IMG/VR virus record: IMGVR_UViG_3300020048_006428
Location: 247,178 to 276,400 of that record
Source: a virus
Lineage: Duplodnaviria; Heunggongvirae; Uroviricota; Caudoviricetes
Strand: one strand, 5' to 3'
DNA: 29,223 nt
Within the stretch, counting starts at the first letter, position 1. Each line of letters opens with the position of its first letter. Made by a program: the position numbers and the translations under genes. Positions 2,503-29,223 of the stretch are shown here, in pieces. The notes under the pieces were generated by a model, which worked only from the letters and a program-made list of their open reading frames with translations, ran no database searches and was not told the DNA's origin.

Positions 2503-2878
2503 TTATTCCCAATATTTTTTATCTTTATTTCGTTTAAGTATCTTTTTATATTTTAATACTTCATCAACATTTATGAATGTAATCCCATTATATTCAAATG
2601 ATTTATTATCAATTAAATCATCTATATCCATAGATAGCCAATTATTAAAGAATTCAATACCATCTGTCCTATACTCATTATTATCACCAAATGTCCACTT
2701 AGATGGTTTTATTATTACATCTAAATCATTCACATCATCTAATAATCCTTTTATAACTAAGGGCGGATCCAAAAACTGCATAATCACCTTTTTCTAAATT
2801 AAATTGTTTTAATTTATCTAATAGATATTCCAAACGTTCTCCACTTTGGAAGTTTTCAAATAATTTTAAGTATTTCAT
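2503..2878 (-). pseudogene. Frameshifted gene: N-terminal MKYLKLFENF tag fused to a minimal nucleotidyltransferase-like domain
   Basis: Manual translation from the ATG at 2878 (ATGA overlap with the upstream stop) gives MKYLKLFENFQSGERLEYLLDKLKQFNLEKGDYAVFGSA, stopping at 2735. The +1 frame continues LVIKGLLDDVNDLDVII...VLKYKKILKRNKD to 2503. Joined, these give a G-S...D-x-D Pol-beta-like signature. The shift maps to GCCC at 2761-2764. Confidence 0.65.
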
Positions 2879-3453
2879 ATATAAGTATATCCCTTTATTT
2901 TTTCTGGTAATTTTATATCAGTTTCATAATATTCATTGTAATCTTTAATTGCTTCTTCTAATAAATGCTTAACAATTTTACAATCTTTTCTTAAAAAATT
3001 ATAAGTTTCTTGATAGTCTAAATATATATCAACAGTAAAAAATATTTTTATTATTTCAATTATTGGATTTCTACCAAAATAAAACCCACCACCTATTTCT
3101 TTAGGACAACCTTCTAAACTGGTTAATTTATTATTAACGCATATAAAATTATTACCAACATAATTTGGACAACCATCTAAATTCGTTAGATTATTATCTG
3201 AACAATTAAACCAATCACCAACATAATTTGGACAACCTATTAATGTAGTTAAGTTGCAATTTGAACAATAAAAATGACCAGTTACTTTATTAAATTTAAT
3301 TGGCAATTCAGTGAATGTTTTTCCATCTAAATCAACATTACCATCAACATCAACAGATCCATCTGGATTTATTGAATATTTTTTTATGTTATATGTCCAA
3401 AGTGTATCAACAATGGATTCATTGTAACTTTCAAATAATTTTAAATATTTCAT
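2875..3453 (-). CDS. LRR-like protein with 21-aa repeats, paralogue 1, N-terminal tag MKYLKLFESY
   Basis: Three full units of V-x-x-x-F-x-C-x-x-x-x-L-T-x-L-x-G-C-P-x-x (e.g. VGDWFNCSDNNLTNLDGCPNY) plus partial units; N- and C-caps shared with 7931..8518. Confidence 0.8.
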   Translation of the reverse strand: MKYLKLFESYNESIVDTLWTYNIKKYSINPDGSVDVDGNVDLDGKTFTELPIKFNKVTGHFYCSNCNLTTLIGCPNYVGDWFNCSDNNLTNLDGCPNYVGNNFICVNNKLTSLEGCPKEIGGGFYFGRNPIIEIIKIFFTVDIYLDYQETYNFLRKDCKIVKHLLEEAIKDYNEYYETDIKLPEKIKGYTYI

Positions 3454-3460
3454 ATATTTC

Positions 3461-3470
3461 TATATATTAA
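3461..3470 (-). promoter_or_regulatory. TTAATATATA motif, putative phage late promoter
   Basis: Lies 7 nt upstream of the ATG at 3453; the same motif and spacing recur at 8526 and 9566. Confidence 0.6.
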
Positions 3471-3494
3471 TTTTTTTATTCCAAATATTATTCT

Positions 3495-3502
3495 TATCTT
3501 TG
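3495..3502 (+). promoter_or_regulatory. TATCTTTG, match to the Bacteroidota sigma70 -7 element TAnnTTTG
   Basis: In the divergent intergenic gap 21 nt upstream of the 3524 ATG; no clear -33 TTTG seen; could be chance in AT-rich DNA. Confidence 0.35.
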
Positions 3503-3523
3503 ATAAACTAAATCTATAAAAAT

Positions 3524-4402
3524 ATGAGTCTACGTAAATATGGTTTTTTAACTTGGGATAAAGATGAAGCATTGAAGAAGATTAATGCCATTGAAATTAT
3601 CAGAACAGATAATCAAATAGTTACCAAATATTTTGGGACTGTTAAGAAAGTCTGTAATGTATCAAATAAATATGAAGTATTTGATATAAAAGAGTTCTTA
3701 AAAGCTAAGATTGAACAAATTGAACAAAATTTTGACATTAGCCATTATAAATTAAAAATAAAAGGTGGTATTCAAGAACTAATCCTATTATCGGATGATG
3801 TAACTATTAATTCTTCAACTTACTATAAGTCATTTTATATACTAAATTCATCTGATAAATCCAGGCGTCTTAGTATGTATATGGGTCTATATAGAAGTGA
3901 TAATAATAGTTATATGGTTGGTTCTATTAAGAATATGTCCTTGCATAAAAAACACTATAAAGGTGTTACAGAAAAGGCAGAAGAAGCATCTTTGGTTATT
4001 GATGGTGAAACTTTTGATGAACAGATAAAGGCAATTCAATCATTAGTTGGTGAATCAGTTATGTTATCTAAAGTCCGTGATATATTAATTGATGAAGATT
4101 CAAACATAAATCACAAAAAATTTGATGCTTTTAAAAACTCATTAAGATATTCAAATTCTGATAAAGTAAAAGGTCTATCAGATACACAAGTAAAAACATT
4201 AAGCACACCATCTGAAAGATTGGAAATAGATTATAAAAATGACTTCTCAATTGACGCTTACCGAGTTTTTAATTGTTATATTCAACTATTCTATAACCAA
4301 GATTCACATGTTGTTAAAAAGGAAACTGATAAGATTCTGAAGATAACAACTTGTTTTATTAGAGATTCTAAAATAGAAGAAATTTTAAATTTCCTGGATT
4401 AA
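3524..4402 (+). CDS. DUF932-like protein with C-terminal tag IRDSKIEEIL
   Basis: VSNKYEVFD, FYILNSSDKSRRLSMYMGLYR and a downstream KKH resemble the DUF932 motifs VS..Y, L.NS.DGS....G..R and H, but the match is degenerate. Confidence 0.45.
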   Translation: MSLRKYGFLTWDKDEALKKINAIEIIRTDNQIVTKYFGTVKKVCNVSNKYEVFDIKEFLKAKIEQIEQNFDISHYKLKIKGGIQELILLSDDVTINSSTYYKSFYILNSSDKSRRLSMYMGLYRSDNNSYMVGSIKNMSLHKKHYKGVTEKAEEASLVIDGETFDEQIKAIQSLVGESVMLSKVRDILIDEDSNINHKKFDAFKNSLRYSNSDKVKGLSDTQVKTLSTPSERLEIDYKNDFSIDAYRVFNCYIQLFYNQDSHVVKKETDKILKITTCFIRDSKIEEILNFLD

Positions 4403-4414
4403 ATAAATATACAA

Positions 4415-4558
4415 ATGAACAAATTCAAATATATTACTACAACCTTAAATAGTATGAAAAAATATTACAGTAACCAAATACCATTACCTAAAAATAGTAT
4501 TTCTAAACTTAGAATAATTTTAGCAAAATTAAATGTTTTGAAAAAAGATGGAAATTAA
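4415..4558 (+). CDS. Micro-ORF 1 (47 aa) with degenerate C-terminal module SISKLRIILAKL
   Basis: Manual translation: MNKFKYITTTLNSMKKYYSNQIPLPKNSISKLRIILAKLNVLKKDGN*; overlaps the next start. Confidence 0.5.
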   Translation: MNKFKYITTTLNSMKKYYSNQIPLPKNSISKLRIILAKLNVLKKDGN

Positions 4559-4634
4559 ATGGTCAATTGGAAAATTAAAAAGAGTTTCAAAAATTAGAAA
4601 AATTTTAGAAAAATTAAAACAATATGGATCCTAA
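4548..4634 (+). CDS. Micro-ORF 2 (28 aa), cationic amphipathic peptide
   Basis: MEIKWSIGKLKRVSKIRKILEKLKQYGS*; overlaps both neighbours by 11 nt. Confidence 0.55.
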   Translation: MEIKWSIGKLKRVSKIRKILEKLKQYGS

Positions 4635-4734
4635 AGCAATTGATGAACTATTAAATGAACACGATAACTGGATAGATAGATATAAAATCCTATATAGAAT
4701 TTCAAAAATCAGAAAAATTTTAGAAAAAATATGA
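4624..4734 (+). CDS. Micro-ORF 3 (36 aa)
   Basis: MDPKAIDELLNEHDNWIDRYKILYRISKIRKILEKI*; ATGA overlap with the next ORF. Confidence 0.55.
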   Translation: MDPKAIDELLNEHDNWIDRYKILYRISKIRKILEKI

Positions 4735-4826
4735 AATACTTAAAATTATTTGAAAACTTTAATCAATCAGAAATTAATAGAATTTCAAAAATTAGAAAAA
4801 TTTTAGAAAAATTAGAAAAATTTTAG
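4731..4826 (+). CDS. Micro-ORF 4 (31 aa): N-terminal tag fused directly to the C-terminal module
   Basis: MKYLKLFENFNQSEINRISKIRKILEKLEKF*. A 20-bp tandem duplication (4791-4810 = 4811-4830) changes the ending from KLKQYG* to KLEKF*. Confidence 0.55.
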   Translation: MKYLKLFENFNQSEINRISKIRKILEKLEKF

Positions 4827-4841
4827 AAAAATTAAAACAAT

Positions 4842-5009
4842 ATGGGTGAAAATAATATGTTTGATTATGACTATTGGAAAGCACAATTTATAATTGAATC
4901 TGATAAGTGGACTTGCTCGCGAATGAGTGGGAGGCTGATGAGCTGGAAAGATCAATATAAAAATAGTAATAGAATTTCAAAAATCAGAAAAATTTTAAAC
5001 AAACTTTAA
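4842..5009 (+). CDS. Micro-ORF 5 (55 aa; alternative start 4857)
   Basis: MGENNMFDYDYWKAQFIIESDKWTCSRMSGRLMSWKDQYKNSNRISKIRKILNKL*; contains a GC-rich segment at 4907-4950. Confidence 0.55.
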   Translation: MGENNMFDYDYWKAQFIIESDKWTCSRMSGRLMSWKDQYKNSNRISKIRKILNKL

Positions 5010-5027
5010 TTTTTCTATATAATTTCT

Positions 5028-5768
5028 ATGAAAGAATTAATTTTAGAAAAATTAAAATGCTTTGAACAAGATGATAAATTTTCATTCAATCCCAAGTATC
5101 ATAAATATACATATGATGGTGAAGTTTTAAAATCAGTAACAACATTGGTTAGTGAATTACATATTAAATTTGATTTTGAAGGAAAATCTAAAAAGAAAGC
5201 CGAAGAAGTCGGTGTTGACCAAAATTGGATAAAAGCAGAATGGTATGAAACCAATAGATATGCCAATGAAATTGGGACAGCCACACACCAATGGATAGAA
5301 GATTATTATAATCAAAAGTGGAATCCATTACCAACCAATCCAGATCTTATACATAGAATAAATAAATTCAATAAGATATACTGTAAATACTTACATAAAT
5401 TAACACCTGTTAAATTTGAAGTAAGGCTTTTTTCTAAAAAATGGAAGTTAGCTGGAACATTAGATGGTTTATTCCTTATGAATGATAAACTTTATATTTT
5501 AGATTATAAAACAAATAAAGTATTTAAAGATGATAATCATGAAGATGGTAGATGGAGAAAATTACTACCACCATTCAATTCTTTTTATGAAAACCACCAC
5601 AATGAATACTCAATACAATTATGTCTTTATGCCTTGATTTTAGAAGAATGGGGTATAAATGTATCAAGTGCTTATATAATTTATATTGGTCCTGATGACG
5701 AAGATGCAAAATTTGTAAAAGTAAAAGATATGCGTGAATATATTAAACAATATTTTGAAAGCCTCTAA
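5028..5768 (+). CDS. PD-(D/E)XK exonuclease, RecB/Cas4-like phage type
   Basis: HKYTYDG..LKSVTT, GTATH, FEVRLFSKKWKLAGTLDGL, ILDYKT and YSIQLCLYALIL motifs. Confidence 0.85.
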   Translation: MKELILEKLKCFEQDDKFSFNPKYHKYTYDGEVLKSVTTLVSELHIKFDFEGKSKKKAEEVGVDQNWIKAEWYETNRYANEIGTATHQWIEDYYNQKWNPLPTNPDLIHRINKFNKIYCKYLHKLTPVKFEVRLFSKKWKLAGTLDGLFLMNDKLYILDYKTNKVFKDDNHEDGRWRKLLPPFNSFYENHHNEYSIQLCLYALILEEWGINVSSAYIIYIGPDDEDAKFVKVKDMREYIKQYFESL

Positions 5769-5785
5769 TAATTAGAGGCTTTTTT
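5758..5785 (+). terminator. Intrinsic terminator between convergent genes
   Basis: AAAGCCTCTA-ATAAT-TAGAGGCTTT followed by a T-run. Confidence 0.75.
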
Positions 5786-5787
5786 AT

Positions 5788-6159
5788 TTACATTTTTACA
5801 ATAAAAAAATGATTTAATGGACATCCACCACCATAGGAATCATATCTAATCTGATCAAAACTTGGCCATATCTTAAGAATACTTTCAAAAGGTTTTACCC
5901 CATTGCCAGGAAAGGAAAGTCCTAAATTATCACCAACTGTAAATATTTCACCATCTGCCTTTCTTTTAACTGAATATATTTCAATATTATCATCTTCTGT
6001 TCTATCAGCATTATTTACACATATTGAAATAAGTCTATCAGTTGGATCTACAATATCATCACCATCTTTAATAGATAGTATATCAAAATATCTTAGAAAT
6101 TCCGTTTTAGCATCTGGTTCTGATTCTTCAAAAATTTTATAATGTTTTAAATATTTCAT
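5788..6159 (-). CDS. Hypothetical protein with N-terminal tag MKYLKHYKIFEES
   Basis: 123-aa ORF at the end of a minus-strand operon; tag-like N-terminus. Confidence 0.65.
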   Translation of the reverse strand: MKYLKHYKIFEESEPDAKTEFLRYFDILSIKDGDDIVDPTDRLISICVNNADRTEDDNIEIYSVKRKADGEIFTVGDNLGLSFPGNGVKPFESILKIWPSFDQIRYDSYGGGCPLNHFFIVKM

Positions 6160-6174
6160 ATAAGTCTATTTTTT

Positions 6175-6882
6175 TTAAGCATAAGAATATGTGAATGATT
6201 TTATAAAATCAATCGCTAAACTATATTTATCTGATAGTGAATAAGTATTATCATCAATCATTAGATATGAATATGTTGGTGCGTATATTTCAGACCAATG
6301 TGTTGAATATGTTGGTGTTATTAAATTATTAACAGAATATGTATATGATGTTATACAGTCATATATTTTATTATTATAAATCATATGATTTCCAATATTA
6401 TAAGCAATTGGCTTTCTTCTATCATCTATAAATTGTGGTATAGAAGCACTTGTAGAACTTGGAATACCAACCATAGATTCTACATCAATATATAATTCAA
6501 TATATTTTTTATTTATTAATGATACTTCATTTTCTATTTCTTTTATATCACCTAAATAGTGATTATTAGTTTTATCATAGAAATGAAAACCTATTTGATA
6601 TACATTTTTTGTATTAAATAAATTATTTAATACTAATGCTGTATTTGTTATTGTATTTAATCTAACAATATCATATGAGTTTTTCTTAAAATCATCAATC
6701 GTTTTAAATTTATCTATATCAATCTTATATTTGGCAGACATAACATCTTCCAATAGATTATATTGTCCATTACTAATAAACTCATCAATTAATAAATAAT
6801 AATCAAATGTAGCATCAATTCCTTTTTGTGCTAATTTGTTTATTTTCTTATACATTTTGTCGTATTCTCTTCTATAATTCAT
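6175..6882 (-). CDS. Hypothetical protein with a C-terminal CBM5/12-like module
   Basis: AYNIGNHMIYNNKIYDCITSYT..P..STHW resembles the Y..G..V.Y.G..Y.C...H...P...W pattern of carbohydrate-binding module family 5/12. Confidence 0.5.
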   Translation of the reverse strand: MNYRREYDKMYKKINKLAQKGIDATFDYYLLIDEFISNGQYNLLEDVMSAKYKIDIDKFKTIDDFKKNSYDIVRLNTITNTALVLNNLFNTKNVYQIGFHFYDKTNNHYLGDIKEIENEVSLINKKYIELYIDVESMVGIPSSTSASIPQFIDDRRKPIAYNIGNHMIYNNKIYDCITSYTYSVNNLITPTYSTHWSEIYAPTYSYLMIDDNTYSLSDKYSLAIDFIKSFTYSYA

Positions 6883-7934
6883 TATTTACCTAATATTTTA
6901 TCAATTTGATCAATTTTGGCTTTATTATTATCATCAGAAATAAATTCGGCAAAATTGGCAACTTTAGACATTTTTTCTTCATCATTTTTAATTTTCCCTA
7001 ATGCGTCTGCTGCTTTTTTAGCATTGTCACCCATATCATTTTCAGCAACACCTATAATATCTTTATAACCCTTTTTAATGGTTGGTGAATTGTTTTTATC
7101 CAAAAATACTACACTTTGATCAGTATCATTTTGATCTAAACTATTTATTACTTTAACACCAACTATATCTTGTTGTTCAGTTGGTTTTTTGTTTTTATCA
7201 TAGTCATTTTTATCTTTATCTTTAAGTAAATATATAACAGGTGTTTTCTTATCAAAATATTCTTTTAATTTATCATAAGTCATTTCATCAGCATTTTCAC
7301 CTGATTTAGATTTAAGTTCTTTATAAAGTTTATCAATTTCTTCTTCTGTAATATCTTTTCTTAATTGATTTTTAATTTCCTTTTGAAAATTATCTAAGAA
7401 AGTAGATGCTATCTTCTTTTTTGCATTTATATCTTTTCCTTTATTTACTTCAATTATATAGTTAGATTTTGAATATTTAAATTTTATATCCTTTTTTAAT
7501 AATCCTTTTTGTGGATCAATTAAACCAACTAATCCAACAAAATCCATTTCTTTATTACCCATTAATATAGCTTTTGATAGTTCTATAACTGCTTTGGATT
7601 TACCTTTTCCTAAAGCAGTTTCAATATCCTTTCCTATATTATTTGATAGTTGGACTAAATTAATAGAAAAATTATCTACAATTCCTAATATAGATGTTTC
7701 ATCTTTTATATTAATTATTTCTTTTTGTGCCGAGTCTATTGCTTGATCTAAATTAGTTGTTATTACATTTACTAATGAATTTGGATCATCTTCTTTAAAC
7801 ATCTTTTTAAAATCATTGGCTAAGTCTTTAAATGGCCCAGCAAACATATTAGCAAGTTTTCCCAAAGCACCCTTTAAAGCAGGTAAAATGAATTCTTCAT
7901 TTAATTTAAATTCTTCGTATTTTTTAATTTTCAT
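6882..7934 (-). CDS. Hypothetical helical protein with N-terminal tag MKIKKYEEFKLNEE; candidate internal virion protein
   Basis: 350 aa; ATGA-coupled to LRR paralogue 2; amphipathic segment ILPALKGALGKLANMF follows the tag. Confidence 0.65.
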   Translation of the reverse strand: MKIKKYEEFKLNEEFILPALKGALGKLANMFAGPFKDLANDFKKMFKEDDPNSLVNVITTNLDQAIDSAQKEIINIKDETSILGIVDNFSINLVQLSNNIGKDIETALGKGKSKAVIELSKAILMGNKEMDFVGLVGLIDPQKGLLKKDIKFKYSKSNYIIEVNKGKDINAKKKIASTFLDNFQKEIKNQLRKDITEEEIDKLYKELKSKSGENADEMTYDKLKEYFDKKTPVIYLLKDKDKNDYDKNKKPTEQQDIVGVKVINSLDQNDTDQSVVFLDKNNSPTIKKGYKDIIGVAENDMGDNAKKAADALGKIKNDEEKMSKVANFAEFISDDNNKAKIDQIDKILGK

Positions 7935-8518
7935 ATGTAGGTATATCCTTCTATTTTTTCTGGTAGTTCTACCTGTTTATCATAATATTCATTGTAATCT
8001 TTAATAACTTCTTCTAAAAGATGTTTAACTATTTTACAATCTTTTCTTAAAAAGTTATATGTTTCTTGATAGTTTAAATATATTTTAACATTATAATCAA
8101 ATAATCGTATGACCCAATGTGTTATTGGATTTTCATGTGGAAAAAAATCACCACCTATTATTTTTGGATATCCATCCAAACTAGTTAATTCATTATCTTC
8201 CATATCAAAATCACCAACAACTTCTTTTGGACCACCTATTAAATTTGTTAATTCATTACCTATACAATAAAAATCATCACCTACATAATTTGGACTATTT
8301 TCTAATGTAGTTAATTCATTTCCACAACAATCAAACCAACCTGAAACTTTATTAAATTTAAGTGGCATTTTTGTTAATTTTTTACTATTTAAATCAACAT
8401 CACCATCTACATCAATTGATCCATCTGAATTAATTATATAGTTTTGTATACCATAATATTCACAAATATCATCAATTTGTGATTGATTGAAGTTTTCAAA
8501 TAATTTTAAGTATTTCAT
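7931..8518 (-). CDS. LRR-like protein with 21-aa repeats, paralogue 2, N-terminal tag MKYLKLFENF
   Basis: Units VSGWFDCCGNELTTLENSPNY / VGDDFYCIGNELTNLIGGPKE / VVGDFDMEDNELTSLDGYPKI; C-cap YQETYNFLRKDCKIVKHLLEE is shared with paralogue 1. Confidence 0.8.
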   Translation of the reverse strand: MKYLKLFENFNQSQIDDICEYYGIQNYIINSDGSIDVDGDVDLNSKKLTKMPLKFNKVSGWFDCCGNELTTLENSPNYVGDDFYCIGNELTNLIGGPKEVVGDFDMEDNELTSLDGYPKIIGGDFFPHENPITHWVIRLFDYNVKIYLNYQETYNFLRKDCKIVKHLLEEVIKDYNEYYDKQVELPEKIEGYTYI

Positions 8519-8525
8519 ATATACT

Positions 8526-8535
8526 TATATATTAA
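8526..8535 (-). promoter_or_regulatory. TTAATATATA motif, putative late promoter
   Basis: 7 nt upstream of the ATG at 8518. Confidence 0.6.
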
Positions 8536-8556
8536 ATAAACAAACCTAAAATTTAT

Positions 8557-9558
8557 TTATATAATATACTTAAATTTATAACCATTCCTTGACTTACATT
8601 CCTCTATATACTTAGATATAGTAGATCTTTTCATACTAAAATGATTAGATGCTTCTGTCAGTGAGTTAAATTCCATATATTCATTTTTATTTTCATTATA
8701 TGCAGAAACTTTAAACCCTTTTGTCTTTTTATTAAAAAAATTATTATAATCCACATCACTAATTTCAGATTCATATATCCACGCAAAATCACCACAAGTT
8801 TTCCTTTTTTTATTAAGACACAACCATATATTTTTGAAGCTTAAATTGTTTTCCCTTGATGCACACATTAAATTATCATAATTAGTAAAAATACCATACT
8901 TATCTATCCGATAAATCTTTTGTCCTAATTTTGTTGTTTTAGATATCCTAATTTTAAGTTTTTCTTCAATATTTGTATCATCTTGAAAGAAAAATGTATA
9001 ACCCCTATTGAAATTCATCCCCCCATTTAATATATCAGATATATTTTTATATGATACATTCAATTTCTCACTGGCTCTTCTTGAATTATTAAAATATTCA
9101 ATTAAATTCTCATTAATATCATAACATACTATTTTTTTACCGCTATTGTATGTAGCTATAAAAATTTTTTCTTTAGTTTTCTCTGACATTTTTCTACCTC
9201 TACTCTTTTCACCAATTTTTCTCCTAGTTTCGGCTGATGGATTTTGTAATCCATCACCACCTTCTGTCATATTTAATAAATTTACACCCAAATATCTAAA
9301 TAATCTAATATAGTGTATTTCCCAATAATCAATTTCAGATTCAAATTCATCTATTATAAAAAATTCTGGTTTCAAATTATCCAAAAATAAATGATGTTTC
9401 CACATAGATAGTCTTGTAGCATAATGGTTTTTATCTTTACTACAGTGGTTTTTATACCTATTTTTAGGATTTTTTGTTTTTCCAATATAAACAACCTCAT
9501 TTGTAATTGGGTGTGATAAACAATAAATATAATTTTTCATAGTCGGTAGTTTCTTCAT
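8557..9558 (-). mobile_element. Free-standing GIY-YIG homing endonuclease gene with NUMOD3 and three NUMOD1-like DNA-binding repeats
   Basis: YIY..VYIGKT..R..H and E...I...LLNMTEGG catalytic domain; SAETRRKIGEKSRGRKMSEKTKEKI (NUMOD3); three I/V..yd....F.s...As repeats (NUMOD1). No flanking intron or split host gene is evident. Confidence 0.9.
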
Positions 9559-9565
9559 TTAATTT

Positions 9566-18361: not shown

Positions 18362-19114
18362 TTATTTTATATTTAATATCTTAACATTTCCTGTTTCCAC
18401 AAAACAATATTCAATTGTTATATTCATACCTTCTCTATTGTAACTTGGGCTTGTTGTATCTTCTTCTTTTATATTTCTATTAATTATAATTAACATTGAA
18501 TCATAATTCCCATAATAAACATTATCATCATCCATATTTGGATTTAAATAAATATTCATATTATCAAGATGTCCAATTGATGTTTTCTTTTTGTTACTAT
18601 GGAATTTATCTGAATTTTTTATTATGTTCAAAATTCTTTTAGAAACGATTATCCAAGATGAATTCTTTCCATTTTTTAATATTCTTTCAATTAAATCATA
18701 TTCTGAATTTTCATTCAATAATTTTTTAAAAAAACCTTGTTTAAAAAAATTATAAGTAGAATTTTCTACATTTTTAAATTTTGATATTTCAGATATAAAT
18801 ATATTCATTATATCATATGATGCGCATTGACAAGGTGATCTATTTATACAGATAGTTTGTGATAATGGTTGATCAGATATAGTCATTTTTGAATTATCGC
18901 AACTATCTTCCTTAACTAATATTCTATGTGATTTTAGCCTATAAATTATTTTTTCTGTTATGTTTCTAACAGAATTATATTCTTTTATTGTTTTACATAT
19001 AGAAATTTCACCACTTGATTCATCAACATATATTGTTTCAACCAATTCATTTATGGATTTTAATCTATTTAATATCTTTTCGCCATACCCAATTTCACTT
19101 GTTAATGTTGTCAT
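18362..19114 (-). CDS. Hypothetical protein, possibly a truncated T4 gp23/gp24 capsid-fold homologue
   Basis: SWIIVSKRILNII..KFH..SIGHLDNMNIYLNPNMDDDNVYYG resembles the gp23-family C-terminal N.II.S..V..L...G.L.G...VY.D.....G segment. Confidence 0.35.
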   Translation of the reverse strand: MTTLTSEIGYGEKILNRLKSINELVETIYVDESSGEISICKTIKEYNSVRNITEKIIYRLKSHRILVKEDSCDNSKMTISDQPLSQTICINRSPCQCASYDIMNIFISEISKFKNVENSTYNFFKQGFFKKLLNENSEYDLIERILKNGKNSSWIIVSKRILNIIKNSDKFHSNKKKTSIGHLDNMNIYLNPNMDDDNVYYGNYDSMLIIINRNIKEEDTTSPSYNREGMNITIEYCFVETGNVKILNIK

Positions 19115-19115
19115 A

Positions 19116-19709
19116 TTATTTATTTAAATGTTTTGACCTTTCTAAATAAGCATTGGAAAACTTATTTAATTTAGTTTTTGATAGATTGTTATAGTTTATA
19201 TCATTTGACATTTTATCAGCTATAAATGATCTTTGAAATGCTTCTGATGAAGAATCTATTCTATTACAATGTTGTTCTAATAAAACATCAAACATTTCAT
19301 CATTTTCATATTTCTTTATAAAAGATGATATACTATTGACTAAATTTTTATTGTTTTCTAATAATTTCTTATCATCAATTGTAGTATTAATTTGATCTAT
19401 TTTATGATCTAATAAATTCCAATCCCTTATATCATTTTTTAAAGATTCCAATACTTTTATATCAGACTTCAATAACTTTTCTCCTAATAGGTCTATAAGA
19501 GCTTCTGCGAGCATTTCTTTTCCAGAAATAGTAACGCTACCATTTAACAATTCAGTCCTTGCTGAACCAAATGATTGAATAGATAATATGTTATCCATAA
19601 GATCCATTATGTTATATTTCAATTCATTTAATTCCTGTTCCTTTTTATTTATTTTAATTTCTGGTTCGGAATTAACTTTTTGTCCTGTTATATTACTAAA
19701 TTTTTTCAT
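19116..19709 (-). CDS. Hypothetical helical protein, N-terminus MKKFSNI
   Basis: 197 aa; late-type motif upstream. Confidence 0.65.
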   Translation of the reverse strand: MKKFSNITGQKVNSEPEIKINKKEQELNELKYNIMDLMDNILSIQSFGSARTELLNGSVTISGKEMLAEALIDLLGEKLLKSDIKVLESLKNDIRDWNLLDHKIDQINTTIDDKKLLENNKNLVNSISSFIKKYENDEMFDVLLEQHCNRIDSSSEAFQRSFIADKMSNDINYNNLSKTKLNKFSNAYLERSKHLNK

Positions 19710-22421: not shown

Positions 22422-22432
22422 TTTAATACTTT

Positions 22433-23521: not shown

Positions 23522-23538
23522 AAAATTAGTTTTTTATT

Positions 23539-23548
23539 TTAATATATA
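23539..23548 (+). promoter_or_regulatory. TTAATATATA motif
   Basis: 14 nt upstream of the 23563 ATG. Confidence 0.4.
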
Positions 23549-23562
23549 CAATTTAGAATGCT

Positions 23563-23951: not shown

Positions 23952-24001
23952 ATTGTTACGTTTTCTTTTTTATATTTTTTTATTTAATTAAGTTTTTTAA
24001 T

Positions 24002-24009
24002 CAAATATA
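24002..24009 (-). promoter_or_regulatory. TATATTTG, match to the Bacteroidota -7 element
   Basis: About 50 nt upstream of the 23951 start, at the head of a long minus-strand run. Confidence 0.3.
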
Positions 24010-24129
24010 AATTGCAAATCTTTATTTTCTTCTATAAACACATAAATATATATACAATGTCTTTCTGATTAAGTTTTATCAATAAAAAGATAAAAGGTTT
24101 TAAAGTGGAAATACAATTGTGGTTAATAG

Positions 24130-24178
24130 TTTTAAGGTGTTAATAATATCATTGGATTAAATTATTAACACCTTAAAA
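24130..24178. other. Long inverted repeat (18-bp perfect stem, 13-nt loop)
   Basis: TTTTAAGGTGTTAATAAT (24130-24147) and ATTATTAACACCTTAAAA (24161-24178) in the largest intergenic gap without a supported gene. Confidence 0.85.
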
Positions 24179-24215
24179 ATCCAAATGAATACAACCATAA
24201 ATATTTAAATTAAAT

Positions 24216-25391
24216 CTATTTAGTTGTTATATCTTCTATTCCTTCTAATACTAAATTATAGATTCTTCTCAATTCTTCTAAATCTTCTTCAGTTTGATTG
24301 CGTAAAATCGTACCATTTGGCAACTTAACTTGATAAATAGGGAAATAACTATTTTCTATATTTTTAGGTATATTTATATCAGGGGATTCATTGACTTGAT
24401 CTTTGAGTTGATTCAAAAGTTCTTCTGGATTTATAGAATCGTTTTTATAATCAATTACTTTTTTATTGACAACTTTATATGTGTCTATAAAATCTTTAGC
24501 TTCTTCGGCATCTTCTAAACTATTTGCTCTGATATCATTTCCATCAATATTATATGTGTTATTATCATCTTTGAAGTTACCAAGTTTCTTAAGTTTTCTA
24601 GTTGCCTTCCTAAAAATCTTTTGCTTATTTTCCCCACTTAATAGTTTAATAATAAAGTCTAATAAAAACTTAATCAATAGTTCAAAGCTATTCAACTTAG
24701 ACCATAATTCTAAAACTATATTGATATTTGTATTCAATATACTACACAATATTGATAAATTTTTACTATCAACAACAAAGTGAAGTTGATCAAAAATAAA
24801 AGTCAATGGGATAATAGCTTTCAAATCTGAAATCAAAGCCAATAATATATCAACAATCGCCATCGTATATGAAACAGCAAGTGGTATATTCCAAGGTGGT
24901 GCAGCTAATACAATTGATATTGCAGCGATTGATGTACCCGCCTGAACAAAAGCTGCTATCACTTTCTTGTAAATAGTCTTTACTTCTTTGATTAAGTTAT
25001 AAAAAGCAATTTTTATTTCTTTGCGTATTTCTTTTGCTTGTTTTTTTAATTCTGTAACTTTTTCTTTGTAAGCTACTTTCATTTGTTTTATTCTTTCTTC
25101 TTTTCTAATTCTTTTTTCTTCAGGAGTTAATTTATAATTATTCCTATTTTCATTTCCATTTTCATTTTTATCTTCTTCATCTAGTTCTTTTTTCATTTTT
25201 TCTAGTGAAATTTGTTCAGAATCTATAATCATGTCAATATCATCTATTGGCATATTTGGATTTTTTTGCTTAAGTATTTTTTTAGCAACATCATCAATAG
25301 ATAACAGATATGGATCCAAATTAAACACACTATTGAATCCAAGCTCCTGTAATTTTTCTATATTATCTAGTAGTTTTTTATATTCGCTCAT
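24216..25391 (-). CDS. Hypothetical protein with a coiled coil and a central hydrophobic hairpin
   Basis: Charged coiled coil followed by AAFVQAGTSIAAISIVLAAPPWNIPLAVSYTMAIVDILLALIS. Confidence 0.7.
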   Translation of the reverse strand: MSEYKKLLDNIEKLQELGFNSVFNLDPYLLSIDDVAKKILKQKNPNMPIDDIDMIIDSEQISLEKMKKELDEEDKNENGNENRNNYKLTPEEKRIRKEERIKQMKVAYKEKVTELKKQAKEIRKEIKIAFYNLIKEVKTIYKKVIAAFVQAGTSIAAISIVLAAPPWNIPLAVSYTMAIVDILLALISDLKAIIPLTFIFDQLHFVVDSKNLSILCSILNTNINIVLELWSKLNSFELLIKFLLDFIIKLLSGENKQKIFRKATRKLKKLGNFKDDNNTYNIDGNDIRANSLEDAEEAKDFIDTYKVVNKKVIDYKNDSINPEELLNQLKDQVNESPDINIPKNIENSYFPIYQVKLPNGTILRNQTEEDLEELRRIYNLVLEGIEDITTK

Positions 25392-25395
25392 AATT

Positions 25396-25405
25396 TATAT
25401 ATAAA
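25396..25405 (-). promoter_or_regulatory. TTTATATATA, late-motif variant
   Basis: 4 nt upstream of the 25391 ATG. Confidence 0.45.
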
Positions 25406-25629
25406 ATGCTTATATTTTCCTATATTGTAAATTCATAAAAACGAAAAAAAATTATCACATTCATTCACTATTTTATAAACAAAAAATCCATCTAATATCA
25501 AAACAATTATTGGGTATAATTGATACAGGGATAGAATTCTTCATAGAAGATGGTATACCTATTGACTGTATTATTGCTGAACTAAATTTAAAAATAAAAT
25601 TTATAACTGTGGAATGCAGAAGTGGATTT

Positions 25630-27129
25630 TTACCCAAATTTAAAGTTGGCTAAACTACATATCTTACCTTTTACAAGTCCCCTTTCACAACAAGTTCTAA
25701 CTAGTTGAATTGCGGCTACAACTATGAGTGTATATTTTAAAATAGTTAAAACTGGACCGATTTGTGTTTCTAAAATTGCTACTAAACTAGCACCTATGAT
25801 TGGGGCAACTACTTTAGCAAATCCGCTAAAAATAGACTTTAATTTTTGATTTTTATTTATCGATATCTCTCCAGCTCGTTCAATTGATTCTTCTGACACT
25901 TGGCTATTGTCTACTTCATCTTCTGCTTCTCCTGCTTCTCCCGAAATAATTTCATCAACTTTTGGTAGAACTTTACCAAATTCTTTATATTTATATGCCT
26001 TATCTAATCCTCTTCTAGCAATACCCGAGATTAGATATAATGCACCATTTGTTCCATATTTAACGGCTTTTAAAACAAGATAGTCTATAGGTCTAATAAT
26101 TAATTTGAAACATTCTAAAACCCAACCCATTACACCCATTCTACCTTTTACTTTTTTATCAGAAGACTTTGATATTATATCACCACTCTCTTTGTAGAAT
26201 TCATTTCCTTCTTTATCTTTAAAATAGAATTTATCCCCATCTATCTTTGTTATTTCTTTTTCTATTTCTTTTCCGGTTTTAGATTTATACTTTACCCTAT
26301 CACCTACTTTATATTCTTCGGATTCTTCTTGAGATTCATTTAGTATCATATCAACATCACTCAAGTTACCCCCTTCAAATAAAAAACCTTTGAGTGAATA
26401 GTAAACCCTTTCAAAATTGAATTTGCTATAAAGATTGAGTGAATCCTTAACTAAATCTTCAACTTTGTCTAAATCATCAACCCCATCATATTCTGATGCT
26501 TCTTCTTCTAATTTCTTTTTTACATCATCAGAGGTGTTACCCATTTCGCCTTTTGAAAATCTATTCTTTACACCGTTTAAATCTGAAACGACTTCCGCTG
26601 TTTCGGTTGAGAAAGCTTCGTCTGAAATAATTTCAGATAAGGCTTCTACTGATGAACTTTTTTGGTTTTTGATTATCCATCCACCTAAACTTTTAACTAA
26701 TGTGATTCCAGTAGTTTTTGTGATTTCCCAAAGAGCTATAAAGACTTGACTAATTTTTTTAAAGATATTTGATATGGTATCTTTGATATTTTTTAAAAAT
26801 TCAGTGAAACTATTATAAGCTTTTCCGACAAGGTTAATACCTCCTTTCCAAGCATTTTTTGTTGCGTTCCAGACTTTACCAAAGATATTTTCTTCTTCTA
26901 AAATAGAACTATCATTATTTAAAAAACTTTGATAAATTTCTTTAATGATAAATTTATCTAATTTTTTGAAATTTATATTTTTTTTAAATTGAGTAATGTT
27001 AATTCTTTCTGATATGAGACTGCTTTCAAAAATCGATTTATTAGATTCCTTACCAATATTATAATAATAGTAAAGATTGTCAGTTTTTATACTTTGACTA
27101 AAACTTGAATAATTTTTTATATATCTCAC
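25630..27129 (-). CDS. Large tagged protein (MRYIKNYSSF) with amphipathic helices, an SH3-like insert and C-terminal hydrophobic helices; candidate ejection protein
   Basis: GTG start; amphipathic FGKVWNATKNAWKGGINLV; YKVGDRVKY..KEITKIDGDKFYF barrel; C-terminal VVAPIIGASLVAIL..VLTILKYTLIVVAAIQLV. Confidence 0.7.
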   Translation of the reverse strand: MRYIKNYSSFSQSIKTDNLYYYYNIGKESNKSIFESSLISERINITQFKKNINFKKLDKFIIKEIYQSFLNNDSSILEEENIFGKVWNATKNAWKGGINLVGKAYNSFTEFLKNIKDTISNIFKKISQVFIALWEITKTTGITLVKSLGGWIIKNQKSSSVEALSEIISDEAFSTETAEVVSDLNGVKNRFSKGEMGNTSDDVKKKLEEEASEYDGVDDLDKVEDLVKDSLNLYSKFNFERVYYSLKGFLFEGGNLSDVDMILNESQEESEEYKVGDRVKYKSKTGKEIEKEITKIDGDKFYFKDKEGNEFYKESGDIISKSSDKKVKGRMGVMGWVLECFKLIIRPIDYLVLKAVKYGTNGALYLISGIARRGLDKAYKYKEFGKVLPKVDEIISGEAGEAEDEVDNSQVSEESIERAGEISINKNQKLKSIFSGFAKVVAPIIGASLVAILETQIGPVLTILKYTLIVVAAIQLVRTCCERGLVKGKICSLANFKFG

Positions 27130-27203
27130 GTCTTTCTCATTCTTTTTTTCTCTGCAAACACACTAACAGTTTTTCTAACCCATATGTTAGATGGATTTTT
27201 TTT

Positions 27204-27518
27204 CTATGTTAATTTATTATAAAATGATGTTGGATTTTGAACTTTATTTGATAATTTCCATTTTCCTAATTGGATACTATATTTTTTATTAAATTCACCC
27301 CTTAAATTGCCTGATTGTAAATCAGTTAGATATATATGAAATTTTTCAGAATAGTCATTATCATCAACAGGATTCAAAAAATATTCTTCATTATTTTCAA
27401 AATCATCTATTGATTCAATAATACCCATTCCCCAACCATATGACTTTTTTAATATTTTTAATATTTTGGTATAGTCATACTTTTCCATATACATTTCATT
27501 AAATCTTTTAATCTTCAT
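27204..27518 (-). CDS. Hypothetical protein with N-terminal tag MKIKRFNE
   Basis: 104 aa; overlaps the upstream gene. Confidence 0.7.
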   Translation of the reverse strand: MKIKRFNEMYMEKYDYTKILKILKKSYGWGMGIIESIDDFENNEEYFLNPVDDNDYSEKFHIYLTDLQSGNLRGEFNKKYSIQLGKWKLSNKVQNPTSFYNKLT

Positions 27519-28923
27519 CTTTATACTTTTTAATCTTATTTAAAACTAATAAATTAAAATTATCACTAGGTTCTATCTTATATGTAGCTGATAGTTTACT
27601 TGAAATTTCACCACCAGTAAATTTAACAATTATATCACAATCAATAAATGGTTGTTCATCTAATTCCATTCTTAATTTTATTAAGAAATTATTTTGTTCT
27701 TCTTCTTCTTTAATTACAAGTTTAACATGATAATCAAATTTTATTTTTAAATCATCATAAAATTCTCTGAAAAATTGTCTGCTTGGAACTTGATAAAAAT
27801 CATTACCTTTATTACCTAAATAATATATAGTCCTTTCTAAACAACCTAATTTATCAACGATAGATTTAATAAGTTTCATTTTAACTTTTCCCGAAGCTTC
27901 TTTAAATCCATTATCTAATTTCTTAATTTCTTTTAAATTATTTTTGGTTAGTGAATCTGTTAATATATGCTCTAATATTTTTGAATTTAATAAGAATATT
28001 TTTTTCTCAATCCATTCTTTATAAACTCTTTCTTGATCTAAAAAACAAGATTCTCTATTTTTCCAAATTTCATTCATTAAGTCTGAAAGATATAAAATAT
28101 TTTTATCAAATTCTCTTATATGTTCACCTAAATTTCTAAATTTCAAATCTTTATGTTTTAAATTAAAATATTGAAACCAATCTAAAGAATCCATACGTGT
28201 TGGATCAATAAACTTTTCTATATGAATTTGGAAATTCTTATTTGCGTTTTCATATATTATTTTAACCCAATTTTGTATTAACTTATCCCATTTTGGTGTG
28301 TATTCTTCCGAATGTAAATTTTCATATTCATCACCTATCAAATCATCAGCAAATGAATTAAATGAAGCTGTTTTTGTTGCATTTAATTTTTTATTTAGAT
28401 AAAAGCTATATTGTTTACCATTAGTTGCTTCAATTACAATATCTTCATTTATATCTTTAGATTTATTTGGACCAATCCAATATATTTTTCTAATTAAATC
28501 ATCTGTTAATTTTTCATCAACTAATAGTTTATCAATTATATTTCTTGCAGTTATCCTTGCATTAACTAAGTCATTCCAATTTTCTTCAATTGAAAAATCT
28601 ACTGATTCAAATATTCCATTTATTTTAGATGTTTCTTCATCAGATACAAATTTATCATCTTGAAATTTACCTAAATTTAAACGGTTTTTAGCCATTAATA
28701 TGTTTTTTAAATCAGTTATAAAAACTTGTGAGTTTTCGCTATATCTAGCTTTCAAACCTTTATCCAAAAGGTTATCTAAAAATTGATTATTTAATAATAC
28801 CATACTTACACATATTTCTGATATTATATTATCAGGTTTATATGTATTCTTTGGTTTTTCTAAATCGTTTTGAACTTCTGTCAATGATTCAATAAATAGT
28901 TTATATGATTTAAATAATTTCAT
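27508..28923 (-). CDS. Large hypothetical protein with N-terminal tag MKLFKSYKLFIES; possible degenerate restriction-endonuclease-like fold
   Basis: ISEICV...YWIGP..DINEDIVIEATNGKQYSFYL loosely resembles the E...W.G..D-I-V....S-L-K PD-(D/E)XK layout but lacks the canonical K. Confidence 0.6.
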   Translation of the reverse strand: MKLFKSYKLFIESLTEVQNDLEKPKNTYKPDNIISEICVSMVLLNNQFLDNLLDKGLKARYSENSQVFITDLKNILMAKNRLNLGKFQDDKFVSDEETSKINGIFESVDFSIEENWNDLVNARITARNIIDKLLVDEKLTDDLIRKIYWIGPNKSKDINEDIVIEATNGKQYSFYLNKKLNATKTASFNSFADDLIGDEYENLHSEEYTPKWDKLIQNWVKIIYENANKNFQIHIEKFIDPTRMDSLDWFQYFNLKHKDLKFRNLGEHIREFDKNILYLSDLMNEIWKNRESCFLDQERVYKEWIEKKIFLLNSKILEHILTDSLTKNNLKEIKKLDNGFKEASGKVKMKLIKSIVDKLGCLERTIYYLGNKGNDFYQVPSRQFFREFYDDLKIKFDYHVKLVIKEEEEQNNFLIKLRMELDEQPFIDCDIIVKFTGGEISSKLSATYKIEPSDNFNLLVLNKIKKYKDED

Positions 28924-28938
28924 TATTTAATTAATATT

Positions 28939-28956
28939 TTTAATATATATATTAAA
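28939..28956. promoter_or_regulatory. Perfect 18-bp palindrome TTTAATATATATATTAAA containing TTAATATATA on both strands
   Basis: Sits in the 51-bp gap between the divergent tagged genes at 28923 (-) and 28975 (+). Confidence 0.65.
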
Positions 28957-28974
28957 TACCATAAACCAAAAGAA

Positions 28975-29223
28975 ATGAAATTCATAAAACTTTTTGAAAA
29001 CTTTAATAAATCAGAAATTGAAGATATTTGCAGAAAATATGAAATAGAAAATTATACCATAAATCCCGATGGATCTATTGATGTAGATGGTGATGTTAAT
29101 TTATATTATTTGAAATTAACTAAATTACCATTGAAATTTAATAAAGTTTTTGGTGATTTTAGTTGTTCTAATAATGAATTAACCAGTTTAGATGGATGTC
29201 CTAAAGAAGTTGGTGGTGATTTT
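28975..29223 (+). CDS. LRR-like paralogue 3 (partial, runs off the window end)
   Basis: Manual translation: MKFIKLFENFNKSEIEDICRKYEIENYTINPDGSIDVDGDVNLYYLKLTKLPLKFNKVFGDFSCSNNELTSLDGCPKEVGGDF; open to the end of the window. Confidence 0.85.
   Translation, partial: MKFIKLFENFNKSEIEDICRKYEIENYTINPDGSIDVDGDVNLYYLKLTKLPLKFNKVFGDFSCSNNELTSLDGCPKEVGGDF

What the first reader, a model, noticed from the sequence alone, without database searches (positions are those of the whole stretch)
2735..29223. Shared N-terminal MKYLKLFENF-type tag, a candidate capsid-targeting and protease-cleavage signal on diverse cargo
Seen: related starts at 2878 (MKYLKLFENF), 3453 (MKYLKLFESY), 4731, 6159 (MKYLKHYKIFEES), 7934 (MKIKKYEEF), 8518, 18093 (MKKINEF), 27129 (MRYIKNYSSF), 27518 (MKIKRFNE), 28923 (MKLFKSYKLFIES) and 28975 (MKFIKLFENF), plus weaker cases at 19709 and 14443. 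The attached domains differ (LRR, nucleotidyltransferase-like, helical, nuclease-like). Most of these genes sit in transcription units headed by TAATATATA. Established: T4 internal proteins use a ~10-aa N-terminal capsid-targeting sequence (MKTYQEFIAE in IPIII) that the prohead protease removes after Glu. Inference: these proteins are packaged into the head and injected, so the tag would predict the phage's injected proteome.
Basis: partly seen in the sequence, partly recalled or inferred. Interest (0 to 1): 0.8.

Follow-up and report, generated by a model that had tools for sequence, protein, structure and literature searches.

The report
Head-address tag on megaphage proteins
Many unrelated proteins of this uncultured giant phage begin with the same ~10-residue peptide, which resembles the label phage T4 uses to load proteins into its head, so the phage probably carries dozens of different proteins in its capsid, although nobody has tested this.

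Summary
Eight genes in the window, plus one 31-codon remnant, start with a shared leader. Three listed cases (18093, 19709, 14443) do not fit.

**Source:** the window ends a 276-kb fragment of a Mahaphage-type huge phage, related to the 634-735 kb genomes.

**Genome-wide pattern:**
- 49 of 358 proteins start M-[KR]-x-[ILFV]-[KR].
- Given that anchor alone, positions 7 and 10 are aromatic in about 80%, and the first Glu falls at 8-13 in 45 of 49.
- The strict tag sits on at least 6 unrelated families and at none of 1,144 internal Met.

**Tag behaviour:**
- It is kept in 120 orthologues of the 471-aa window protein.
- It is unplaced in two confident AlphaFold models.
- It is present on phage SET-domain enzymes whose flavobacterial homologues lack it.

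**Head machinery:** the phage has a T4-type capsid protein. Its T4-type prohead protease is fused to about 13 repeats of 14 residues whose core resembles the T4 capsid-targeting sequence.

**Best reading (0.6):** a capsid-targeting leader, probably removed by the protease. Injection is a further inference, and nothing has been tested experimentally.

"Diverse cargo" is partly paralogues (three LRR genes), and "nuclease-like" was not supported.

The scan reached the same reading on other windows of this genome and on other megaphage genomes. I found no paper describing it.

The parts
2735..2878 (-). Exact tag on a 47-codon ORF. This is the N-terminal piece of a frameshifted gene that continues as 2503-2787.
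   Evidence: Translation. The frame change lies near 2745-2760. No Pfam match for either piece.
2503..2787 (-). Second frame of the same broken gene. A G-S ... D-x-D spacing is seen across the break.
   Evidence: Three-frame translation. The 'nucleotidyltransferase-like' label is only an impression from the motif.
2875..3453 (-). Tagged LRR protein of 192 aa.
   Evidence: Member of a 15-gene paralogue family. Aligned in A3.
3461..3469 (-). TAATATATA promoter-like motif, 8 nt before the start codon.
4731..4826 (+). 31-codon remnant: the first 15 residues of the LRR family fused to a local repeat unit.
5788..6159 (-). Tagged 123-aa protein of unknown function.
   Evidence: Its homologue in the 642-kb relative shares 11 of the first 12 residues but only 29% identity overall. 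No Pfam match.
6882..7934 (-). 350-aa protein with a weaker tag. Its start overlaps the stop of the LRR gene upstream.
   Evidence: Its orthologue in the relative also has a leader-like start. No Pfam match.
7931..8518 (-). Tagged LRR protein of 195 aa.
   Evidence: AlphaFold model with pLDDT 93.5. Residues 1-7 are below 50 and the fold starts at residue 12. Residues 1, 2, 3, 6, 7 and 8 are nonetheless invariant in 20 paralogues.
8526..8534 (-). TAATATATA promoter-like motif, 8 nt before the start codon.
25630..27129 (-). 499-aa protein with a tag-like start, but only if the GTG start is used. The C-terminal part is hydrophobic.
   Evidence: No Pfam match.
27204..27518 (-). 104-aa protein with a moderate tag.
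27508..28923 (-). Tagged 471-aa protein that is widely conserved in huge phages.
   Evidence: More than 1,100 homologues. The best 120 (59-73% identity) keep the leader pattern. AlphaFold model with pLDDT 86.7: residues 1-26 are below 50 and the fold starts near residue 28. No PDB fold match.
28946..28954 (-). TAATATATA motif, 23 nt before the start at 28923.
28941..28949 (+). TAATATATA motif, 26 nt before the start at 28975. It forms a divergent pair with the motif on the other strand.
28975..29223 (+). Tagged LRR paralogue, cut by the end of the record.

Best explanation
The shared start is a portable N-terminal address peptide of huge T4-type (Mahaphage) phages.

Composition of the tag:
- A basic start, M-K-x-[LI]-K.
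- Two aromatic residues three apart, at positions 7 and 10, or Y-x-x-F in a second class.
- A Glu within residues 8-13.

It is not part of the folded cargo.

Most likely mechanism (inferred):
1. During prohead assembly the tag docks on the internal scaffold. In this lineage the scaffold is a run of about 13 repeats of 14 residues, fused to the prohead protease.
2. The core of each repeat (Y-S-E-Y-[LI]-A-E) looks like the T4 capsid-targeting sequence and like the second class of tag.
3. The cargo is therefore enclosed when the capsid shell forms.
4. The protease then cuts after Glu. This releases the cargo inside the head and chops the scaffold into short pieces.
5. The cargo would leave with the DNA at infection. 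This last step is the least certain.

Shown here:
- The tag exists, is non-random and is conserved at the protein level.
- It is portable between unrelated proteins.
- AlphaFold does not place it in the fold.
- It co-occurs with T4-type head genes.

Inferred: binding to the scaffold, cleavage, packaging and injection.
For: 1. Non-random and N-terminal only.

2. Selection acts on the protein, not the DNA.
- Codons 3, 4, 6, 9 and 10 of 61 distinct copies vary synonymously.
- Positions 7 and 10 exchange F with Y rather than with one-base neighbours such as Leu.
- The pattern persists in relatives of 31% and 36% GC.
- It persists in 120 orthologues of the 471-aa window protein.

3. Portable.
- At least 6 families unrelated beyond residue 14 carry the strict tag in this genome.
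- The exact 10 residues head at least 25 different proteins on about 40 IMG/VR contigs.
- Phage SET-domain enzymes carry the tag plus an acidic linker, while Winogradskyella homologues at 58% identity lack it.
- A Vibrio-phage LRR homologue also lacks it.

4. Conserved but unfolded. pLDDT is below 50 for residues 1-26 and 1-7 in two models of pLDDT 86.7 and 93.5.

5. Head machinery.
- Gp23-type capsid protein and S77 protease domain.
- Protease ORF of 718 aa with the 14-residue repeats, conserved in five relatives.
- In T4, residues 4 and 7 (Y, F) give targeting and residues 8 and 10 give processing (PMC9026906).
- The capsid-protein propeptide has conserved V-L-E-N and I-N-E-N, while the strict tag has L-F-E-N.
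- [LIVFYM]-x-E within residues 4-16 occurs in 84% of anchored proteins against 32% of others.

6. Distribution and context.
- 16 of 30 tag-bearing contigs have a Gp23-type capsid gene, including 3 of the 4 that are at least 90% complete.
- In a complete 348-kb relative, three genes with leader-like starts lie directly after the capsid gene.
- Tagged genes are enriched behind TAATATATA (odds ratio 5.2, p=4e-7).
- That motif heads the portal gene and a unit of two tagged genes followed by the tail sheath gene. Variants of it precede the sheath and capsid genes themselves.

7. Capacity. One copy each of the 95 tagged proteins of the 642-kb relative totals about 1.8 MDa. SPN3US packs more than 40 MDa of ejection proteins (PMC7411985 abstract).
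Against: - No virion, proteome or cleavage data exist for any phage of this lineage.
- The resemblance to the T4 signal covers about 7 residues, which is too short for a homology statistic.
- The cut site is ambiguous. With Glu-8 as P1, the P3 residue (position 6) is Leu in only 19 of 49.
- A use on 10-14% of all genes has no precedent.
- Across 8 tagged orthologue pairs, the first 12 residues were not significantly better conserved than the rest (0.55 against 0.48, p=0.25). Untagged pairs showed the same bias.
- The promoter-like motif also heads a run of genes that includes a probable ribonucleotide reductase, named only from its N-terminus, and several homing-endonuclease genes.
- No early-gene class could be defined, because the host-type TAnnTTTG motif is not enriched.
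- One window protein (25630-27129) ends in a hydrophobic, membrane-like stretch.
Confidence: 0.6

Rival explanations
1. The shared start is mainly a by-product of gene duplication and recombination. On this view, paralogue arrays and a conserved 5' junction let cassettes be copied and swapped, and the peptide itself has no addressing role.
For: - Three of the strong window cases are LRR paralogues, and 15 such genes exist in the genome.
- The conserved LRR 3' end overlaps the next tagged start at six junctions with near-identical DNA.
- The 4731 remnant is a tag fused to a local repeat.
Against: - The tag is on families with no similarity beyond residue 14.
- Its synonymous sites vary.
- It is kept as a pattern in 120 diverged orthologues of a single-copy protein and in relatives of different GC content.
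- Upstream DNA is not conserved apart from the short promoter-like motif.

Recombination explains how the tag spreads, not why it is maintained.
Confidence: 0.12
2. The conserved first ten codons act at the RNA level. They would be a translation-initiation or repressor-binding region, needed for example on nearly leaderless mRNAs that start a few bases after the promoter-like motif.
For: - In several tagged genes the motif ends only 5-8 nt before the ATG, so the mRNA would have almost no leader.
- The second codon is AAA in 60 of 61 copies.
- C-ending Tyr and Asn codons are over-used in the tag: TAC is 57% in the tag against 9% genome-wide.
Against: - The tag also occurs on operon-internal genes whose starts overlap the upstream stop.
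- The best-conserved positions are codons 7 and 10, and they conserve aromatic character (F or Y) rather than bases.
- Leu codons at positions 4 and 6 use five or six synonyms.
- The same peptide pattern is kept in genomes of 25%, 31% and 36% GC.
Confidence: 0.08
3. The peptide is an address or handle for something other than the capsid. Possibilities include a degron or protease-recognition signal, a docking helix for a shared partner or chaperone, or a signal for a membrane or another compartment.
For: - It is a conserved, unfolded linear motif on many proteins. That fits any short recognition signal.
- No experiment ties it to the head.
Against: - It has no hydrophobic core like a secretion signal.
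- Its closest sequence matches are the phage's own scaffold repeat and the T4 head signal.
- It co-occurs with T4-type head genes.
- In one relative, leader-bearing genes sit in the head operon.
Confidence: 0.15
4. The tag is compositional chance. In a 25% GC genome, Lys-, Tyr-, Phe-, Leu- and Asn-rich starts are expected.
For:
- A loose pattern matches 3-4% of control windows.
Against: - The strict pattern is at 24 of 358 N-termini, against 0 in 1,144 internal Met, 10,270 other positions and 17,900 shuffled N-termini.
- The reversed-pattern control gives 0 hits against 22.
Confidence: 0.02

Closest known systems
Capsid targeting sequence (CTS) of phage T4 internal proteins IPI, IPII and IPIII (Mullaney and Black 1996, as reviewed in PMC9026906 and PMC3012670)
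   Same: - An N-terminal peptide of 10-20 residues on otherwise unrelated, fast-evolving proteins.
- It starts M-K and has two aromatic residues three apart, which are the targeting determinants in T4.
- A Glu follows, of the kind a gp21-type protease cuts after.
- The phage encodes a Gp23-type capsid protein and an S77 protease.
   Different: - Three extra residues precede the aromatic pair.
- The Glu lies between or just after the aromatics, and the [LI]-x-E rule is met only in part.
- It is used on 10-14% of all genes (about 95-107 in a 642-kb relative) instead of a handful.
- The scaffold is a repeat array fused to the protease, not a separate gp22.
- Nothing has been tested experimentally.
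Propeptides of inner-body and ejection proteins of phiKZ, 201phi2-1 and SPN3US giant phages, cut by gp175/gp245 (PMC5694885, PMC9026906)
   Same: Giant myoviruses with a T4-related prohead protease that cuts after Glu. Many head-internal proteins are loaded through N-terminal propeptides, and paralogues share identical N-termini.
   Different: - Those propeptides are mostly longer than 100 residues and are not one short shared tag.
- Their cleavage motif is [SAG]-x-E or A-x-E.
- They belong to a different phage lineage.
- Those cases rest on mass spectrometry.
N-terminal packaging signal of phage P1 DarB (PMC9024508)
   Same: A short N-terminal stretch is sufficient to send a protein, including a reporter, into a myovirus capsid for delivery to the host.
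   Different: It is a single known cargo in a stepwise Dar assembly pathway. There is no sequence resemblance and no large tagged gene set.
Cargo-loading peptides of encapsulin nanocompartments (from my own knowledge, not checked here)
   Same: A short conserved terminal peptide on diverse enzymes docks them to the inside of an HK97-fold shell, so cargo can be predicted from sequence.
   Different: They are usually C-terminal and bind the shell protein rather than a scaffold. There is no proteolytic removal, and it is a cellular compartment rather than a virion.
Protease-scaffold fusions (herpesvirus assemblin-scaffold, lambda C/Nu3, P2 gpO; from my own knowledge)
   Same: The maturation protease and the internal scaffold are made as one polypeptide, as in the 718-aa ORF of this phage.
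   Different: Here the scaffold part is a regular array of 14-residue modules, each ending in a candidate cut site and resembling the cargo tag.

Membership tests
T4-type capsid targeting sequence (CTS) | Located at the extreme N-terminus and about 10-20 residues long. | tested here: met
   The pattern is found at N-termini only: 24 of 358, against 0 of 1,144 internal Met. Folded domains start at residues 12 and 28 in two models.
T4-type capsid targeting sequence (CTS) | Two aromatic residues spaced i, i+3 that carry targeting (Y4 and F7 of IPIII; PMC9026906). | tested here: met
   Positions 7 and 10 are aromatic in 78% and 82% of anchored proteins, against 16% background. A second class has Y-x-x-F. 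This is a pattern match only; function was not tested.
T4-type capsid targeting sequence (CTS) | A processing site of the gp21 type ([LI]-x-E, cut after Glu) at the end of the tag. | tested here: inconclusive
   The first Glu is at 8-13 in 45 of 49, and [LIVFYM]-x-E occurs in 84% against 32%. The strict tag has L-F-E-N, like V-L-E-N and I-N-E-N in the capsid propeptide. However, position 6 is Leu in only 19 of 49, and no cleavage data exist.
T4-type capsid targeting sequence (CTS) | The phage encodes a Gp23-type capsid protein, an S77 (gp21-type) prohead protease and an internal scaffold. | tested here: met
   PF07068 at E=2.4e-25 and PF03420 at E=7.6e-8, over the cut-off. PHROG head maturation protease at E=2.6e-31. 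A repeat scaffold is fused to the protease.
T4-type capsid targeting sequence (CTS) | Carried by proteins that are otherwise unrelated. | tested here: met
   At least 6 families have no similarity beyond residue 14. At least 25 different cargoes occur across IMG/VR. A SET-domain enzyme gained the tag.
T4-type capsid targeting sequence (CTS) | The tag is sufficient for incorporation into proheads and is removed there. | not testable with these tools
   This needs virion proteomics or a packaging assay.
T4-type capsid targeting sequence (CTS) | Common descent with the T4 signal. | not testable with these tools
   About 7 comparable residues is too short for any statistic (T4 sequences read).
   This applies to this window only. 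The local repeats at 4496-5003 fold weakly (z -0.3 to -2.5). The window Pfam scans matched no recombinase family. The tagged genes here are not bounded by these repeats.

The most novel reading that the evidence does not exclude
Huge Mahaphage-type phages may have scaled the T4 capsid-targeting principle into a general loading system. A roughly 10-residue tag that mimics the 14-residue modules of a protease-fused scaffold would load on the order of 100 different proteins into each head. These include enzymes captured from the host, such as a SET-domain methyltransferase. The whole pre-packaged and probably injected proteome of uncultured megaphages could then be read from sequence alone.
Probability: 0.45. 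Interest if true: 0.85.

Novelty: new variant of a known kind. Interest (0 to 1): 0.65.

Why it matters
If the tag is a head address, three things follow.
- It gives a sequence-only way to list the proteins that the largest known phages carry into their hosts.
- It gives a first functional handle on roughly a tenth of their genes, nearly all of which lack any annotation.
- It suggests that very large capsids are used to deliver a broad set of ready-made effectors.

It would also supply a short natural tag and a modular scaffold for loading foreign proteins into T4-type capsids.

The prediction is directly testable in viral-fraction metaproteomes from freshwater samples. The signal would be semi-tryptic peptides that begin just after the tag's Glu.

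Tried and rejected
- **Megablast against cultured phages:** the window matched only a DNA methylase gene of Cellulophaga phages.
- **Family searches of tagged proteins:** Pfam on the window's tagged proteins found nothing above cut-off. Of 41 non-LRR tagged proteins genome-wide, only 4 had Pfam hits and 4 had PHROG hits, none informative.
- **The 471-aa protein:** Foldseek gave a best E of 0.055, VIA-align gave a best Z of 4.3, and the ESM Atlas returned only unnamed viral clusters. 'Nuclease-like' is therefore unsupported.
- **Conservation test:** I asked whether the first 12 residues are better conserved than the body in orthologue pairs. The result was not significant and is biased by how pairs were chosen. 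I do not use it.
- **Early-gene class:** I tried to define one from the Bacteroidota -7 motif TAnnTTTG. It occurs upstream of 32 genes, about what chance gives.
- **Local repeats at 4496-5003 as hairpins:** folding is weak.
- **Literature search:** searches for the tag sequence and for capsid targeting in huge phages found no description.
- **Mistake:** one search used a mistyped reference and returned an error.
- **Composition as an explanation:** rejected.


Full report
**What the window is.** The window is the last 29.2 kb of a 276.4-kb IMG/VR virus record with 25% GC. CheckV puts the record at 47% complete. Its capsid gene is closest (67-78% nucleotide identity) to GenBank records of 634,780, 636,363, 642,428 and 735,411 bases. 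These lengths match the four largest genomes of Al-Shayeb et al. 2020. Those genomes belong to the 'Mahaphage' clade and are predicted to infect Bacteroidetes (PMC7162821). The genome encodes:
- a Gp23-type major capsid protein;
- a portal, a tail sheath and a tape-measure-like protein;
- an S77, T4 gp21-type, prohead protease domain.

**Check of the observation.**
- Strong: 2878, 3453, 4731, 6159, 8518, 28923 and 28975.
- Moderate: 7934 and 27518. Also 27129, which depends on a GTG start.
- Not tags: 18093, 19709 and 14443.

Two qualifications apply.
- The genes at 3453, 8518 and 28975 are paralogues of one LRR family with 15 members in the genome.
- The start at 4731 is only a 31-codon remnant. 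It has the first 15 residues of that family joined to a local repeat.

The gene at 2878 is split by a frameshift and has no Pfam match.

**More than chance.**
- The strict pattern occurs at 24 of 358 N-termini. It occurs at none of 1,144 internal Met, 10,270 other positions or 17,900 shuffled N-termini.
- As a degenerate DNA pattern it hits 22 times in the genome, against 0 for the reversed control. It also hits 2-5 times in three of the four relatives.
- A cleaner test anchors only on residues 1-5, M-[KR]-x-[ILFV]-[KR]. This picks 49 of 358 proteins here and 107 of 967 in the 642-kb relative.
- In those proteins positions 7 and 10 are aromatic in 78-85% and 50-82% respectively, against about 16% background.
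- Glu is almost absent before position 7. The first Glu falls at 8-13 in 45 of 49 and 89 of 107.

**Protein level, not DNA level.**
- Among 61 distinct copies of the exact ten residues, codons 3, 4, 6, 9 and 10 vary synonymously.
- Upstream DNA is not conserved apart from a short promoter-like motif.
- Positions 7 and 10 swap F and Y rather than one-base neighbours.
- The pattern is kept in genomes of 25%, 31% and 36% GC.
- The 471-aa window protein (27508-28923) has more than 1,100 homologues. The best 120, at 59-73% identity, nearly all keep a leader of the form basic start, Y/F-x-x-F, one residue, E, then A or S.

**Portable and outside the fold.**
- In this genome the strict tag heads at least 6 families with no similarity beyond residue 14.
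- The exact ten residues occur in 56 IMG/VR stretches from about 40 contigs, on at least 25 different downstream sequences.
- One of these is a SET-domain enzyme. The phage copies have the tag plus an acidic linker. Homologues from Winogradskyella (Flavobacteriaceae), at 58% identity, start differently.
- A Vibrio-phage LRR homologue also lacks the tag.
- In AlphaFold models built from family alignments, the tag is not placed in the fold.
  - 471-aa protein: residues 1-26 are below pLDDT 50, in a model of mean 86.7.
  - LRR protein: residues 1-7 are below pLDDT 50, in a model of mean 93.5.
  - Six of the first eight LRR residues are nonetheless invariant in 20 paralogues.
- Between this genome and the 642-kb relative, the 471-aa protein keeps the tag but has an 11-residue gap between tag and body.

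**Link to the head machinery.**
- The protease ORF is 718 aa long. After the protease domain come about 13 tandem 14-residue units with the core Y-S-E-Y-[LI]-A-E followed by N, S or T.
- The same array is present in all four huge relatives and in a complete 348-kb relative.
- In T4, genetics place targeting at residues 4 and 7 (the two aromatics) and processing at residues 8 and 10 (PMC9026906).
- The repeat unit therefore looks like a T4 targeting sequence with its cut site. The second class of tags here (Y-x-x-F-[LI]-x-E-S) looks like the repeat unit. That pattern is about ten-fold enriched at N-termini.
- The capsid protein's N-terminal propeptide aligns with that of T4 gp23. It has conserved V-L-E-N and I-N-E-N, where T4 has I-F-E-N. 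The strict tag has L-F-E-N.
- I reached the repeat array before reading the scan's earlier notes, which report the same thing in other genomes.

**Distribution and expression context.**
- Sixteen of 30 tag-bearing IMG/VR contigs encode a Gp23-type capsid protein. These include 3 of the 4 that are at least 90% complete and the seven with the tagged SET gene.
- In the 348-kb relative, three genes with leader-like starts follow the capsid gene directly.
- TAATATATA occurs 129 times in the genome, and its 10-base form about four times more often than expected.
- It lies 5-30 nt before many starts. It heads the portal gene, several large structural-looking genes, and a unit of two tagged genes followed by the tail sheath. 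Close variants precede the sheath and capsid genes.
- Tagged genes are enriched directly behind it (27 of 49 against 59 of 309, p=4e-7).
- It also heads a run that includes a probable ribonucleotide reductase (named only from its N-terminus) and heads homing-endonuclease genes. I could not define an early class. 'Late' therefore remains likely but unproven.

**Cargo.**
- None of the window's tagged proteins has a Pfam family above cut-off. Ten of the untagged window proteins scanned do: two DNA methylases, a GIY-YIG endonuclease, a PD-(D/E)XK nuclease, a glycosyltransferase, ATPases and others.
- Genome-wide, 41 non-LRR tagged proteins gave 4 Pfam hits and 4 PHROG hits.
- The 471-aa protein has a confident model with no match in the PDB.

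**Mechanism and rivals.** The best-supported reading is a capsid-targeting leader that docks on the repeat scaffold and is removed by the attached protease (confidence 0.6).
- Capacity is not an obstacle. One copy each of the 95 tagged proteins of the 642-kb relative is about 1.8 MDa.
- Recombination clearly spreads the tag but does not explain its maintenance.
- An RNA-level role is weakened by the amino-acid pattern of conservation, though the excess of TAC and AAC codons in the tag is unexplained.
- A different destination cannot be excluded without experiments.
- The weak points are listed in the Against line. The main ones are the ambiguous cut site, the non-significant conservation test and the complete lack of virion data.

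**Comparison and novelty.** The principle is that of the T4 CTS. Related principles are the giant-phage propeptides (PMC5694885) and the P1 DarB signal (PMC9024508). The differences are:
- the tag's form;
- the apparent mimicry of a repeat scaffold fused to the protease;
- the scale, at 10-14% of genes.

I found no paper that describes it. The scan itself has reported the same tag on other windows of this genome and on other megaphage genomes. Those are unchecked AI notes and were not counted as evidence.

Noticed in passing
window 4496-5003 (+): Five clear copies, and up to seven with two degenerate ones, of a 33-42 nt repeat found nowhere else in the genome or in the 642-kb relative. Each copy forms the C-terminal ~12 codons of a tiny ORF. 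One of these is the tag remnant at 4731. Similar sequence lies at the 3' end of gene 3524-4402 and at the 5' end of gene 5028-5768. Folding is weak. It looks like recombination scars or decayed mini-genes.
   Followed up: partly
window 2503-2878 (-): A tagged gene is split by a frameshift near 2745-2760. Across the break the sequence reads G-S ... D-x-D, as in small Pol-beta-type nucleotidyltransferases, but there is no Pfam match. It could be a pseudogene or an assembly error.
   Followed up: partly
G000:C1:88884-91040 (outside the window; locus L052): The prohead protease is fused to about 13 tandem 14-residue repeats, then an acidic stretch and a conserved C-terminal domain. No separate scaffold gene lies between the protease and capsid genes. 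The arrangement is conserved in five relatives.
   Followed up: partly
window 7931-7934, and five other junctions in the genome: The conserved C-terminus of the LRR family ends in a stop that overlaps the ATG of the next tagged gene (ATGA). The DNA is near-identical across junctions. This is a likely site for unequal recombination within tagged-gene arrays.
   Followed up: no
tag codons 3 and 9, genome-wide and in IMG/VR copies: Tyr is TAC in 57% and Asn is AAC in 62% of tag copies, against 9% and 13% genome-wide. This codon bias inside the tag is unexplained.
   Followed up: no
G000:C1, upstream of 88884 and of 91133: The protease and capsid genes are each preceded by a similar element: a run of A, then a short GC-containing inverted repeat, about 40-70 nt before the start. 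It may be a shared regulatory or terminator-like structure.
   Followed up: no
window 8557-9558 (-): A GIY-YIG/NUMOD homing-endonuclease gene sits directly behind its own TAATATATA motif, between the tagged LRR gene and a plus-strand block with two DNA methylases.
   Followed up: no
loci L088, L094, L099, L107, L108, L118, L124, L130, L137 (IMG/VR): A 150-aa SET-domain protein carries the tag in many megaphage contigs. Its nearest cellular homologues are in Winogradskyella (Flavobacteriaceae). This fits a Bacteroidota host and capture of a host gene.
   Followed up: partly
window 18362-19114 (-): A 250-aa protein gives a weak, sub-threshold match to the Gp23 capsid family (E 0.002-0.02). It is probably noise but was not examined further.
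   Followed up: no
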